Part shown: piece after piece, positions 10,901 to 49,073 of the stretch
Layout of the letters: every line of letters starts with the position of its first letter
Position numbering within the stretch: position 1 is the stretch's first letter
Origin: Amoebophrya sp. A120
Lineage: Eukaryota; Protista; Dinoflagellata
Length of the DNA: 64,000 nt
Assembly (NCBI GenBank): GCA_905178155.1
Contig: CAJINV010000008.1
Location: 3,621,420-3,685,419, forward strand
Direction: 5' to 3'
Translations under genes and position numbers: made by a program
The notes under the pieces: generated by a model
Databases searched by the model: none
Seen by the model: only the letters and a program-made list of their open reading frames with translations
Told to the model about the DNA's origin: nothing

Positions 10901-13900
10901 AGATGAAAATAACCTCCGCAGATGATGGTGAGGATATCATAGCGACAGCTGCAGAACGAGAGGACGTGGGTCTGAATGCGACCGGCGTCCCCGCCGGGGC
11001 CAGCATTGTGGAGGCAGGCACTAGTAAAGATCCAAAGAGCTCCTGCTGCGCAGAGGAGGACGAAGAAGTCAAAGCCGACAGCGACAAAAAGGGTGGAATT
11101 GTACCAGCACAACATCAAGAAGGAGGAAAAAAGAGTAGGCACAAGAAGTTCCACCAGTTTGACTGGAAGTGCCTTTCCCTGAATCGCATCGTCGAGAAGT
11201 TGCAGAACAAACAGCCGCAAATGGTGGTCGACACGTATTACCTAGTCGACGCCGTCAAACGCGATGTTCATATGATCCAGACGGAGATGAGCCGGGTGTT
11301 CGGATTGAACCACCATCGTCAGTACATCGTCCACCTTGCTTGCGAGTTGTTTGAGGAGCTGGAATTCTACGCCGCCGACATTTATCAGCACGAGCTGAAG
11401 CTCGGCCAGCAGAAGCGCGTGGCCAAGGCACAGAAGGAACAGGCCGACTTTCAGAAGCAGGAACTCCTTGCGCATCAAAACTACCTGATGCTGCAGCTGC
11501 AGCAGGATCAACATCTTCACGCGACGAAGCAAGCTGCAGCGGTAGCACCGGCGGGAGGCGCCACTTTGCCGCTGCAGTTCCTCTGTCCCCCCGGTGCGGC
11601 AGCCGCGAATGGGATACAAGTCGTTGCTCCCCTTCCCGCGGCTGCAAGCTCCGCCAATAGTAAACCCCTTGATAGGAGGTCCTTGAAACGGCCTGCATCA
11701 AACAGAAATAACGACGAAAAGACCCCATCCAGCTCGGACAACGCGTCTCTGTACGGCGCCCGCTCGAAGCCGAAGAAGGCGAAGCGCAAGGCGCAGCCGA
11801 AAAAGAAGACTAAGCAGGCGGAGCTGTTGACCGCGGCCGATGAGGATTTCTTCGCAAAGGACGCAGCCGACGACACCAAAGATCACGACGGCGATAAAAA
11901 TAGCGCAGCTGCGTCGAGCAAATCCGAAGACAACAAGTCCTCTGTCGTTTCGCGGAAAAGCGCCAACAAGAGAGCGAACCCGAAGAAAAAGTCCGCGCCT
12001 TACCAGTTAGGCATTACAAAAGCACTTCTGCACTTCGTATAAATGCCAGGCCTGCCGCACTAGAGATCTGCCTTATCTATATCCACCTTGGCTAGCATGA
12101 CAAAATCCACCATGTTTCTTCTTGGCCTTCTTGGGACAATTTGTAGTGCATAATAAGTATGTGATTTGGATTTGGGTTTATACTTGTGCGATACTTTTGT
12201 ACAGGATACCAGTACAGCGGTAACAACAAGAACCTCGACAAGAAGATGTTGCTCAACCAGGCAAAGGGCGGGACGCAGCTCTCCGACTCCGAGGACGATT
12301 ATGAGAGTGCACATCTCGCTCTCGTCCCCCTCACTTGGATGAAATTTCTAGCAACAGTTGCGACAACCTAAAAAGTGGCGCTTGGCCAGAAGTGAAGTAA
12401 CTGTGGGCTGTAGGTCATTGTCGGCTTCCAGAACTTGTCGTGCAAGCACGGGCATCAAACTTAAAGGGCCCAGATAAGACTTGGCATTTTGCAAATGTAG
12501 CGCAGTCTGTTAAAGGATGACAAAGGAGGGGATTGTGGTTGTGCACTATCATAAGGATGAAGACAACGACAGGAAGTCCTCGGTGGTCGGGAAGAAGTCT
12601 TCCGCCGGCACGAATAAGTCCAACCGCAGAAAGAACTACGACCTGCGGATATCCTGAGTAAAAACGTACCCACACCAGAGTTGTAATGCAGATTTGCAAA
12701 GACCTGAAGACTTGGTATGCGCATCCCCATGAGAGCCATTCCCAATCGTGTTTTGGAATTTGTGACGCTGTGAACAGGATGAGCAGATGAATCTGTGACG
12801 CGGCTGCACTTGCTAACCTGCACTACACTGCATAGGGCATCTTGTCATGCGTGACTCCCAAAACTCCTAGGTTTGTGTTGCAAAATCCTCATCCTGACTC
12901 TGGTGTGGGGACGTTTTTACTCAGGATAGCGGAACCGCAGGACAGCGGATACCGTGCCGAAAGAGCCGCAGTACCCGCCAAGCAAGGGCGGGATCACGCC
13001 GCAGCTTCGCACGCAGACCGCGGGCTACTTCGGGGAGCTGAAGCCGGAGCATCAGGAGCTCATGCACGATTTCGTCCGGAACTGGCTTCCAAGTTACGAC
13101 GAAGCGGAGATGGAGTTGGAGATCTGGGACTTCCTCCCCACCTACCAAAAAGCCTTCGCGGAACAGGTGAAAAAGTACCACCGACAGGCGCACCCGGAAA
13201 TGCACAAGAAGCAGGCGTCGTCCAGCGTGGCCGGCGGGGCGGCTAGTAAAAAGAGCCGGCTTGGGGTTAACGCGGTCGGAGCACCAGGACAGGACGGAGC
13301 GGATAAGGTGCTTCACTTTTTATTTTCGCAATATTGAGAATATGAATTTGAATATCCATGACGTAGACTCATTTTCGAAGATTTCCGCTTTTTGGAATTG
13401 TTTTGTTGCAGTCGCCTCGTCCCCATAGGCGCCCTCCCCTGTGCGTCATCCCGTGCGGGGTTCGTTTGCGTTGTTGTGCCACGTCTTCACTTTTGCCTCT
13501 GCTCGACAACGTCATCATCAGTATCGAAATAGGTTTTCAACAAATTACAGCGCGCCCGCTACGCCAATGGCGAGCTCATATCCGACAACGAGTCCGGGTC
13601 CTCTTCCGAAGATGTCCTTTTTAACCAGAGAAATGCCAAGAAGCCCAAGCGGGTGGTGGACAGCGATTCCGACGACGACGTGCCGAAGTTCAACTTCCGC
13701 CCGAGGCCGGGGACCAGTGCAGCAAATGATGCCGTAGGCGGCGGGGGCAGTAAAGATTCTAATCATGTGACCAGCAACGCCGCGGATGATGTTGATGTTG
13801 CTCCCCTGATCGCCATGGAAGATGATGGCATGTTCGCAAACGTAATCCGAGAACAGCAGCAGCAACAACTGCAGCAGCAGCAACTGGAAGCCGCACAGAG

Positions 13901-46405: not shown

Positions 46406-49073
46406 ATGGCGAGTCCTTCGGGTACCGGTGGTGGCACTGGTACCCCCAGTAGCACTTCCTCTTCCGCCAACGGCGCGAAATCCAAGATGGCGTTAAAACA
46501 GGGGCGGGAGCAGGAGCAGAACCAGAGCGACCGTCCAGAACCCCCGCCGTCCTCGGCATCCTCCTCCACAGCCTCCACGCCGAGCAGGAGCAAAGAGACC
46601 TCGGGCGTCAAATCTTCGTGGTGCCCCCCGCGGTTCAGCTCGGTGTCCGACAATGAGGTGGAGGGCAACATCTACATGCACAACCCAAAGGCCCTGCCAA
46701 TACGGATGATCAACTGGTACCAGGTGTTTCAGACGCACTATTTGTCCCACATCTACATCGCGGTCATCGCGTTTCTCATCTACTTCGCGCCCAATGAGCT
46801 CTTCTTCGTCAGCGAGCTGGGGTACAAAGCCGTGGAAACCTTTGGATGGGTATAAAATAAATAGAAATCTTCAAAATTTGGTTTCAGATAGTCAACATCT
46901 GGATTTTTTTTCCCACTCGGATTCTCAATGTAGTTCGTTGTGATTTAGAATTTTCCATGAATGTAGTAATGATGCGCAACAGAAGATCATGCAGATGCAC
47001 CAAAGAAGTATGTTGGTGCTCTCGCGAACCAACGATTGTGCACTCTCGTGGGTTGTCAAACGGCCACTTTTTCTGTACTCAATTGATCTTTAGTACATTC
47101 ATGAATGTAAATGTTGCTGTCAAAATAAAAATCCACAGTCCCGCGTCGTTTTGGTCGTCCTGCTGCCCTTGATCCTCTACCGTTCTTCTTCGTGGGGCCC
47201 ACATTGGCGCAGCAGTGTCTATTTGATCGACTTCGAGTGTGCGGCACCCCCCGAGGATTGGCGCATGACGGTGGAGCAGACGAAGAAGATGCTGGAGAAC
47301 CAGAGAAGTTTTACAGACGAGTCAAAAGAGTTCCAGCACCGGATTCTGAATACCTCCGGTATCGGCGACGGTACCGCCTGGCCGCCCTGCATCTTGAATT
47401 CCCTCGGCGGGAAATCTGTCGCGACGAGCCGCAGCGACAGTAAAACTTCCGCCTCCTCCGGTGGGTCACTGTACGAGTACGCGAGTACGATGCAAGACGC
47501 GAGGGATGAAACCGAGACCATCGTGTTCGACATGGTGGAACGACTCCTCGCGAGGACAAAAACAAAAGCGAAAAACATCGACTTTCTCGTCGTCAATTGC
47601 TCGCTCTTCTGCCCGACACCGTCGATCTGCGCCATGATTGCGAACAAGTTCAAAATGAAGGAGGACATCAACAGCTTCAATCTGGGCGGCATGGGCTGCT
47701 CCGCCGGGGTCATCAGCATCGACTTGGCGAAGCAGCTGATACAAAACAAACCTGGGGCAACGGCGCTGGTGGTCAGCACCGAAAACCTGTCACAGAATCT
47801 GTACGTTGATATAGATCTACACGTCTTGTTTGACTACTAGTATACTTATGTTCTTGTTCAACAACACAGAGGGTCAAGTTCAAGATCCAGCTCCATGATG
47901 ACTGTTCTTTTTCAGTTGTCACTCTCACTTTCACCAGGACATTGCCGCAAACCTAATATCATGATACAACTCATCAAAGGCAAAACAATAAAAAAAAACA
48001 GTTACACGGGTAACGATCGTTCGATGATGATGCAGAACACGCTTTTCCGTTGCGGTGGCGCCGCGGTTCTGCTTTCGAGCAACAGCTACAACTACAACAC
48101 GAAGCGATTTGCAAAGTACAAACTCCTTCACAGCGGCCGCACCTTCATGACGGACGACGAAAGTTTCAAATGTGTCTACCAGGAGGAAGACAATCTGCCG
48201 AGTAAAGTTGCAAGCTGTATTGCTAGTACAACAAGAACAGAAGGTGAAGGAACAAAAGCAGAAATATCCAAAGCACAGTCAGCGACAAATAACAATATAA
48301 AACCCGCAGCCGCGGCGCCGTCAGGGGATCTGAAGGGCGTCCGTCTGCAGCGAAACATCGTGACCGTCGCTGGGCGCGCACTGACGAAGCAATTCACGCA
48401 GCTCGGCCCGAACATCTTGCCGGTCAGCGAGCAGGCGAAGACGATCGGCACCATGGTCGCGGACTACCTGTGCAAGAATTTTTTGCACATTTTGTCCCCC
48501 AAACACTTCCCGCCGCGGGTAAAGATCTACACGCCGAACTTCAAGAAGTGCATCGACCACTTTTGCATCCACGCGGGCGGCCGGGCGGTCATCGAGGGCG
48601 TGCAGAAGAACCTGAAGCTAACGGATCGGGACGTCGAGCCGTCCTTCATGACGCTGAAGAAGTGGGGCAACACGAGCAGCTATCAAATGTAAAAATGTCT
48701 GGGTCTGGAAGAATGCGCGATTTGTCATGCAGCTTTTCCATGACCCATGAAGCCTGGAATGCAGGATCTAGCATGACAGATTCTGCGCGATCTCTCTCAT
48801 GCCTATCCTGCATGACAAACTCCCTCCCGACTTGGCCAAAACTGGACCACATTTGGTAATCATGCAGCACAGATTTTTGCATGCTTCAGATTTAGCATGA
48901 CAAGTTGCATTCTTCCAGACCCAGACATTTTTACATTTGATAGCAGCTCCTCCATCTGGTACGAGCTGCAGTTCATCGAGGACTCGAAGCGCATAAAACA
49001 CGGCCACCAGGTTCTGCAGATCGCCTTCGGCTCCGGGTTCAAGTGCAACTCCGCGGTCTGGCTCAGACTGTAG
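46406..49073 (+). CDS. KCS: 3-ketoacyl-CoA synthase (FAE1/KCS-type fatty acid elongase condensing enzyme); exons 46406-46849, 47139-47800, 48002-48680, 48948-49073
   Basis: [22 protein letters not shown] (catalytic Cys), [53 protein letters not shown]. Confidence 0.95.
48681..48942. mobile_element. Introner, family A, youngest-looking copy; DR GCAGC/GCAGC
   Basis: Perfect 36-bp TIR TATCAAATGTAAAAATGTCTGGGTCTGGAAGAATGC. Interrupts the conserved [12 protein letters not shown] motif. Confidence 0.97.

What the first reader, a model, noticed from the sequence alone, without database searches (positions are those of the whole stretch)
12650..48942. Same introner families sit in both orientations inside sense-strand genes: orientation-independent splicing
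Seen by hand alignment in three families. (1) 18326-18591 is colinear with the reverse complement of 48681-48942 and 24876-25154; 18326 and 24876 are in the same gene. (2) The ~85-nt left end of 20822 matches the reverse complement of the right end of 12650 (..TGCAACACAAA..AGTTTTGG..GCATGACAAG). (3) 14492-14641 is the reverse complement of 38857-39005 and 19154. The family A and C copies frameshift or carry stops in the middle of long ORFs, so both orientations must be removed. Established: spliceosomal signals (donor, branch point, acceptor) are strand-specific. Inference: recognition depends on symmetric features, namely the TIR hairpin and bidirectional motifs.
Basis: partly seen in the sequence, partly recalled or inferred. 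Interest (0 to 1): 0.9.

Follow-up and report, generated by a model that had tools for sequence, protein, structure and literature searches.

The report
Mobile introns spliced in either direction
In the marine parasite Amoebophrya A120, small transposon copies sit inside genes facing either way and copies facing both ways are missing from transcript contigs, likely because all the cutting signals lie in their mirror-image ends, which narrows how this organism's unexplained introns could be spliced.

Summary
The window is Amoebophrya sp. A120, and the elements are its published introners (TAT-N7-AAA inverted ends, 5-nt target duplication). All three claimed inversions hold outside the terminal repeats. 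Transcript-type contigs skip family A in both orientations (14115 and 48681), while a DNA-type run keeps 48681 in place. All 10 listed joints remove the element plus 5 nt. One register fits them all: cut 1 nt before TAT and 4 nt after ATA. Among 108 family-A copies from a related assembly with a host-strand call, orientation is 46:62 (p=0.15 against 1:1), and the boundary letters look random (5 of 116 GT-AG). Splicing in both orientations is already published for Polarella and Aureococcus introners, which use near-canonical splice sites. I found no report of it, or of this fixed register, for Amoebophrya. The chemistry is untested. I favour a U1-less spliceosome reading motifs inside the inverted repeats (0.5) over a Euglena-like hairpin-guided route (0.35). 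Efficiency per orientation and lariats were not measured. No earlier scan note covers this DNA.

The parts
14115..14366 (-). Family A introner, reversed relative to 48681, in a + strand gene; intron 14114-14370
   Evidence: Joint 14113>14371 in X1 and X2; orientation
18326..18591 (-). Family A introner, reversed relative to 48681; predicted intron 18325-18595
   Evidence: the frame needs element+5 removed; no RNA joint listed
24876..25154 (+). Family A introner, same orientation as 48681; predicted intron 24875-25158
   Evidence: Frame test; absent from the annotated A120 protein P0121; no RNA joint listed
48681..48942 (+). Family A introner in the GNTSSSS motif of a 3-ketoacyl-CoA synthase gene; intron 48680-48946 under the register (ends CT..AG)
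   Evidence: Joint 48674>48942 in X1, X2, X3 and none in X6; spliced model identical to P0001; hairpin z -12
12650..12928 (+). Family B introner; intron 12649-12932 under the register
   Evidence: Joint 12644>12929 in X1 and X2
20822..21225 (-). Family B introner, reversed, with about 125 extra nt and a decayed target duplication; predicted intron 20821-21229
   Evidence: frame test; database fragment P0123 begins DP-YGTF as in the spliced model, where the genome reads NA-YGTF
14492..14641 (+). Family C introner; intron 14491-14645 (ends TT..GT), the one joint without ambiguity
   Evidence: Joint 14490>14646, both=0, in X1 and X2
27372..27548 (+). Family C introner, same orientation as 14492
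   Evidence: Joint 27366>27549
19154..19303 (-). Family C introner, reversed, degenerate right end (ATG)
   Evidence: frame test; no RNA joint listed
38857..39005 (-). Family C introner, reversed, inserted between nt 1 and nt 2 of the outer intron that follows
   Evidence: contig pieces in X2 and X3 imply 476 nt removed (table 8)
39010..39326 (.). Outer family-A-like introner (target duplication AGCGA) whose 5' TAT would be rebuilt when 38857 is removed; orientation unresolved
46406..49073 (+). Host gene: very-long-chain 3-ketoacyl-CoA synthase, 636 aa, two GT-AG introns plus 48681
   Evidence: Pfam FAE1; identical to A120 protein P0001
10640..14969 (+). Host gene of 12008, 12300, 12650, 14115, 14492 and two GT-AG introns; open frame of 819 codons
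   Evidence: poly(A) behind 14969 in raw RNA reads X10
17407..27609 (+). Predicted host gene with 15 TIR introns and one GT-AG intron; open frame of 1,966 codons; may be two genes split at 22101

Best explanation
These are MITE-like introners of Amoebophrya A120 that sit in coding exons in both orientations and are removed together with 5 nt of the target duplication, likely by a U1-less spliceosome that reads only motifs inside the terminal inverted repeats. Steps. (1) Insertion makes a 5-nt duplication (shown as a pattern; the transposase is unknown). (2) Each end reads TAT-S-N6-AAA inward, so the transcript presents N|TATS...AAA at the 5' end and TTT...SATA-NNNN| at the 3' end whichever way the element faces (shown). 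(3) The cut falls 1 nt before TAT and 4 nt after ATA, set by transcript direction, which restores the exon exactly (shown for one unambiguous joint, compatible with nine more; inferred for reversed copies). (4) The letters at +1, -2 and -1 come from the target site and are free (shown). (5) The T at +2 and A at +3 would serve as the GU-A-like donor and the A at -7 as the branch point, with the hairpin only bringing the ends together (inferred, untested).
For: Both orientations of family A are skipped. All 10 listed joints remove element+5, with one common offset. Orientation is 46:62 with a strand caller that was right on 21 of 21 window elements. Element+5 is the best removal length in 29 of 31 and 37 of 39 decided cases. 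Boundary letters are even: +1 is C27 G32 A32 T25, and GT..AG is 5 of 116. The register puts T at +2, and all nine predominant A120 non-canonical sites in Farhat's Table S4 have T there. The same register yields an ordinary GT..AG intron at 23244-23504. YTRAY with A at -7 occurs in 27 of 46 and 44 of 62 copies. End sequences are conserved without co-variation at TIR positions 4, 5, 7 and 15. Farhat et al. found U2, U4, U5, U6 and 83 of 89 spliceosomal proteins but no U1 in A120.
Against: No lariat, branch point or snRNP dependence was tested. A spliceosome indifferent to +1, -2 and -1 would be extreme (established knowledge, recalled: G+1 and the terminal AG are read in the second step). In young copies a 25-45 bp stem would bury both putative signals (median 26 of the first 30 nt paired). 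YTRAY is missing from spliced copies such as 12650 and 12008, and CTRAC occurs in the last 75 nt of 0 of 108 copies. TIR positions 10 and 14 do co-vary (0.70 vs 0.55, 0.77 vs 0.56). The exact cut was fixed by one joint in one sample, and by no joint of a reversed copy.
Confidence: 0.5

Rival explanations
1. A spliceosome-independent route, as proposed for euglenid nonconventional introns: a nuclease and ligase recognise the closed TAT/ATA hairpin end, cut with 1-nt and 4-nt overhangs, join the exons and release a circle.
For: Free boundary letters. Equal folding in both orientation classes (-0.39 and -0.38 kcal/mol per nt; 43 of 44 and 55 of 62 with at least 20 of 30 terminal pairs). Euglena introns have a similar lopsided geometry (N3-CDG...CHG-N5-6) and need the pairing. 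No U1 was found in A120.
Against: Spliced copies 27063, 14492, 12008 and 27372 match at only 8-11 of 16 terminal positions, and the minimum-energy fold does not pair the ends of 12008 or 26217. No co-variation at four of six variable TIR positions. The register coincides with GT..AG geometry.
Confidence: 0.35
2. Each strand carries its own ordinary internal branch point and donor, so the two orientations are independent conventional introns.
For: An ATGAC/ATSAS motif lies about 48 nt from the 3' end in both orientations (41 of 46 and 53 of 62).
Against: That motif is the subterminal inverted copy, so it is symmetric rather than independent. There is no GT/AG selection in either class, and no CTRAC.
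Confidence: 0.07
3. The joints are reverse-transcriptase template switches across hairpins flanked by direct repeats.
For: Strong hairpins and 5-nt direct repeats are the recalled hallmarks of this artefact; all RNA joints come from cDNA contigs of one study.
Against: The 14492 joint falls outside the shared TGG letters. Retention puts stops in every modelled frame and splits a motif conserved as GNTSSSS-W in 120 of 122 database proteins held at that point. Copies with weak hairpins are skipped too.
Confidence: 0.03
4. The elements are excised from DNA in the expressing stage or strain, like ciliate internal eliminated sequences, or are absent as a polymorphism.
For: The RNA-type and DNA-type runs are different samples; the ends begin with TA.
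Against: DNA-type run X6 runs into 48681 from both sides and has no joint there, while the same contigs of X1-X3 also skip GT-AG introns.
Confidence: 0.04

Closest known systems
Amoebophrya A120 introner elements (Farhat et al. 2021, PMC7789003; read: abstract, sections 10-12, 16, 32, 36, word-search passages, supplement passages)
   Same: Same organism, TAT-N7-AAA inverted repeats, 5-bp direct repeats, about 240-nt length, non-canonical RNA-supported boundaries. These elements are members.
   Different: The paper's main text has no passage on element orientation ('strand' 0 hits, 'orientation' only for genes) and calls the splice sites variable or unknown relative to the hairpin. Here both orientations and one -1/+4 register are shown. 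Its figures were not visible to me.
Polarella glacialis introner classes and Aureococcus anophagefferens introners (Roy et al. preprint 10.1101/2020.10.14.339549, passages read; Huff et al. 2016 not held, known only through that preprint)
   Same: TIR/TSD DNA transposons that create introns in either orientation and recruit target-site letters.
   Different: They carry or recruit GT/GC/GA and AG sites, have constrained target sites, and classes 6, 8 and 10 are biased to one orientation. Here the boundary letters are unconstrained and the family A ratio is not distinguishable from 1:1.
Euglenid nonconventional introns (Nomura et al. 2025, PMC12501133, abstract and passages; Mikina et al. 2024 review, PMC11282704, section 6)
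   Same: Inverted-repeat ends, a paired triplet set back by a short 5' and a longer 3' spacer, free terminal dinucleotides, proposed MITE origin.
   Different: Triplet CAG/CTG at N3 and N5-6 with a purine starting the exon, against TAT/ATA at N1 and N4 with no purine bias. Circular excision is shown for Euglena and untested here. Nomura's text has no hit for 'orientation' or 'reverse'.
Fritillaria borealis non-canonical introns (review section; preprint 10.1101/2025.08.15.670264, two passages)
   Same: TIR-derived non-GT/AG introns, reported to be removed by an adapted U2 spliceosome.
   Different: Dominant AG-AC/AG-AT ends and a preferred exonic TAC, against free ends here.
Fungal [D1,2] stwintrons (abstract starts in search listing only)
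   Same: At 38856-39330 an inner intron lies between nt 1 and nt 2 of an outer one and would have to go first.
   Different: Both units here are non-canonical TIR elements; the splicing intermediate was not observed.

Membership tests
Amoebophrya A120 introner element | Found in A120 | tested here: met
   The spliced KCS model is identical to the A120-named protein P0001
Amoebophrya A120 introner element | Inverted repeat starting TAT, seven variable nt, then at least three A | tested here: met
   in non-A elements AAA at 11-13 in 116 of 158 ends
Amoebophrya A120 introner element | 3-5 nt direct repeats at the exon border | tested here: met
   Perfect 5-nt repeat in 138 of 158 family A copies
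Amoebophrya A120 introner element | Repeated, and removed from RNA at non-canonical boundaries | tested here: met
   158 copies in 168 loci; joints
MITE (non-autonomous TIR DNA transposon) | Short, TIR, fixed-length TSD, non-coding, many copies | tested here: met
MITE (non-autonomous TIR DNA transposon) | Cognate autonomous element or transposase | not tested
Canonical U2 spliceosomal intron | GT/GC donor and AG acceptor | tested here: not met
   TT..GT at 14491-14645; 5 of 116 GT..AG
Canonical U2 spliceosomal intron | Branch-point consensus near the 3' end | tested here: inconclusive
   YTRAY at -7 in 71 of 108 copies, CTRAC in 0 of 108
Canonical U2 spliceosomal intron | Lariat intermediate and snRNP dependence | not testable with these tools
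   Contigs and the raw reads laid show no excised intron
U12-type intron | RTATCCT donor (consensus recalled) | tested here: not met
   Families B and C can read NTATCCTG, but family A reads NTATSAA; U11/U12 reported absent
Polarella/Aureococcus-type two-way introner | Creates introns in either orientation | tested here: met
Polarella/Aureococcus-type two-way introner | Carries or recruits GN donor and AG acceptor | tested here: not met
Euglenid nonconventional intron | N3-CDG...CHG-N5-6 with a purine starting the exon | tested here: not met
   N1-TAT...ATA-N4; first exon letter is a purine in 63 of 116
Euglenid nonconventional intron | Terminal pairing required; excised as a circle | not testable with these tools
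   Pairing is strong in young copies and weak in some spliced ones
[D1,2] stwintron | Inner intron splits nt 1 and 2 of the outer donor; two consecutive reactions | tested here: inconclusive
   The geometry and the 476-nt total fit; no intermediate seen; ends are not U2-canonical

The most novel reading that the evidence does not exclude
Amoebophrya A120 has a second, spliceosome-independent splicing machine that recognises a TAT/ATA-closed RNA hairpin and cuts at -1/+4 regardless of sequence. It turns any insertion of these transposons, in either orientation and at any site, even inside another intron's end, into a perfect intron. This would be convergent with Euglena's nonconventional introns.
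Probability: 0.35. Interest if true: 0.85.

Novelty: new variant of a known kind. Interest (0 to 1): 0.58.

Why it matters
How A120 removes the roughly 65% of its introns that lack GT-AG is an open question in the papers read. Orientation independence excludes strand-specific interior signals and confines the code to the inverted ends. The fixed N|TAT...ATA-NNNN| register explains the published scatter of boundary dinucleotides as target-site letters. It names the position to test for a branch (-7) and the product to look for (lariat or circle). It also explains how a transposon can fill exons at little cost, and gives a simple annotation rule: the public model P0121 reads into element 27063, which the contigs skip.

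Tried and rejected
No whole genome was held, so genome-wide counts come from 168 loci of one partial collection scan (11 of 64 parts). The viral collection had 0 matches. Rfam: 0 matches in the window. The raw-read runs gave no junction evidence: X10 covered only 14719-14969 and X11 laid 3 reads. No joint was listed for 11 of the 20 elements modelled in 10500-30000 (18326, 18664, 19154, 19472, 19791, 20070, 20405, 20822, 22405, 23245, 24876); cover there was low and 15 joint rows were hidden, so this is no evidence either way. Orientation could not be assigned for 19472, 20405, 27063, 39010, 8745, 30886, 26217, 38558, 12008, or for the 12300/20070/37634 group. My first guess for one intron (22428-22631) was replaced by 22404-22631 after the annotated protein showed a better TIR and TSD; the coding model was trained with the earlier guess (8 extra codons). 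A longer annotated protein for the 17.4-22.1 kb part was not found. A120 U2/U6 sequences were not in the supplement text, so pairing with TAT or the -7 A could not be checked. U12 membership was rejected. A required role for the GCATSASA motif was rejected: it is absent under the strict pattern from spliced 12300. Scan notes: nothing by sequence or place; one unrelated note by words.
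Full report
What the window is. A self-comparison shows repeated 150-400 nt elements with terminal inverted repeats. A scan for TAT...ATA pairs gave 29 candidates against 3-7 in shuffles. The exon at 48003-48677 is 100% identical to a protein labelled Amoebophrya sp. A120, and my spliced model of that gene equals it over all 636 residues. 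The element ends match the A120 introner description of Farhat et al. 2021: TAT, seven variable letters, at least three A, and short direct repeats (PMC7789003). So the elements themselves are published.

The observation. All three inversions hold. Because inverted repeats align to their own reverse complement, I trimmed the ends and compared cores. Opposite-strand against same-strand scores are 108 vs 24 (18326/48681), 93 vs 19 (18326/24876) and 128 vs 17 (12650/20822), with shuffles near 16; and 77 vs 28 (14492/38857) and 38 vs 18 (14492/19154). 14115 is a further family A copy facing like 18326. The host frames are on the + strand: GT-AG introns read on +, and raw RNA reads show poly(A) behind 14969.

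Removal from RNA. Contigs of X1 and X2 (one sample; RNA is the tool's guess, but they skip GT-AG introns) list joints for 9 of the 20 elements I modelled in 10500-30000, including 12650, 14115, 14492 and 27372 (15 joint rows were hidden). X1, X2 and X3 (two samples, one study) skip 48681. X6 runs unbroken through the GT-AG introns into that element from both sides and shows no such joint. Family A is thus directly skipped in both orientations. For family C, contigs in X2 and X3 hold 54 letters between 38552 and 39327, exactly the exon 38797-38850, so reversed 38857 is removed too (table 8; inferred from piece coordinates). For family B, reversed 20822 has no joint. The frame needs it removed, and a database fragment starts with the two residues of the upstream exon, which is modest support.

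The register. All 10 listed joints remove the element plus 5 nt. The only offset compatible with all of them leaves 1 nt of the left duplication and 4 nt of the right in the intron. It is fixed uniquely by 14492 and bracketed by 14115 and 27372. The 14492 joint is not at the letters the two repeats share, which argues against template switching. Applying the rule to 15 elements gives a 1,966-codon open frame. Shifting any one of the first 12 introns by 1 nt closes it early, and 1 of 2,000 random offset sets reached 1,900 codons. The annotated protein P0121 agrees at 1,176 of 1,177 aligned residues but starts at 22101, so 'same gene' for 18326 and 24876 is likely but unproven. Farhat's Table S4 lists nine predominant A120 non-canonical sites, all with T at +2, as the rule predicts.

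Beyond the window. A pattern scan returned 168 loci (11 of 64 parts scanned; the 80 listed share one assembly prefix; strain not verified). They hold 158 full family A copies, 138 with a perfect 5-nt duplication and 149 with an assignable orientation. A coding model called the host strand correctly for 21 of 21 window elements with their own gene left out. At a margin of 3 it gave 46:62 (p=0.15 against 1:1; 41 oriented copies uncalled), and at no margin 66:83. Subfamilies at 90% identity or more contain both orientations (8:4, 3:4, 1:3, 2:2). Element+5 was the best removal length in 73 of 158 copies, +4 in 3, +6 in 1, with 81 ties; by class 29 of 31 and 37 of 39. Families B and C gave 3:2 (3 uncalled) and 11:5 (9 uncalled). 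These counts show where copies sit, not how efficiently they are spliced.

What is and is not symmetric. Boundary letters show no selection: +1 is C27 G32 A32 T25, AG ends 12 of 116, and GT..AG is 5 of 116. Both classes fold equally and pair their ends (48681 z -12, 14115 z -6). A motif GCATSASA occurs at 7.0 per kb in 28 TIR introns, 0.7 in 12 approximate GT-AG introns and 0.05 in coding DNA. One copy near each end is symmetric, while the interior copies flip with orientation. Against a pure-shape code, TIR positions 4, 5, 7 and 15 match between the two ends no better than in shuffled pairs, although 10 and 14 do, and spliced copies can match at only 8-11 of 16 terminal positions (the search pattern fixed some positions at one end). 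A YTRAY with its A at -7 lies in the 3' repeat of 27 of 46 and 44 of 62 copies, but not in all spliced elements.

Mechanism. The safe conclusion (about 0.9) is that the code lies in the inverted ends and therefore reads the same both ways. For the chemistry I commit to a U1-less spliceosome (0.5). The register places T and A at +2 and +3 as in a GTA donor, gives plain GT..AG when the target site allows (23244-23504), and offers a fixed A at -7; U2, U4, U5 and U6 are reported present. The main rival is a hairpin-guided, Euglena-like route (0.35), favoured by the free boundary letters and the long stems. Neither was tested. At 38856-39330 the inner element sits between nt 1 and nt 2 of the outer intron. 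A single -1/+4 step would remove 475 nt and two steps remove 476, which is what the contigs imply. This resembles a [D1,2] stwintron.

Novelty. Introners that work in either orientation are described for Polarella and, by citation, Aureococcus, and Gozashti et al. 2022 allowed for opposite-orientation copies in their search. For Amoebophrya I found no statement on orientation or on a fixed register in searches, or in passages of PMC7789003, PMC12130899, PMC11282704, PMC12005148 and PMC11453091. Limits: Farhat's figures (S14-S25), Huff 2016, the journal version of Roy et al. and the bioRxiv supplements were not visible and could bear on this. Verdict: a real, new property of a known system. Interest 0.58.

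Noticed in passing
window 38851-39331: Nested pair: reversed family C copy inside the first two letters of an outer A-like intron; contigs imply both are removed exactly (476 nt), three codons before the stop.
   Followed up: partly
window 23244-23504: A decayed TIR element whose -1/+4 ends read GT..AG, so an introner that looks canonical; absent from annotated protein P0121.
   Followed up: partly
window 27063-27343: The public A120 model P0121 translates into this element, while contigs of X1 and X2 skip it; probable annotation error.
   Followed up: partly
window TIR introns; loci L001-L168: Motif GCATSASA is shared by families with different TIRs (68 of 79 non-A elements) and is about 140-fold denser than in coding DNA; it could be a transposase or RNA-binding site.
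   Followed up: partly
window 12008, 18664, 22405, 19303, 955: Old copies with changed end triplets (TAG, TAC, TAA at the left; ATG, GAT at the right) still fit the +5 rule; 12008 is skipped in contigs. This suggests that T+2 and A+3 matter more than the third letter.
   Followed up: partly
window 21076-21200: About 125 extra nt inside family B copy 20822 that match neither the rest of it nor 12650.
   Followed up: partly
window 50525-58174: A 2,550-codon open frame without any intron, in contrast with the 16-intron gene at 17.4-27.6 kb; not identified.
   Followed up: no
window 39327-43574: An X3 contig runs unbroken from the end of one gene through the next, which may be read-through or DNA in the run.
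   Followed up: no
window 781-955, 8745-9115, 12300-12553, 19472-20622, 26217-26994, 30886-31239, 37634-37906, 38558-38796: Further TIR introns of other or unassigned families; all long, well-supported frames in the window are on the + strand.
   Followed up: partly
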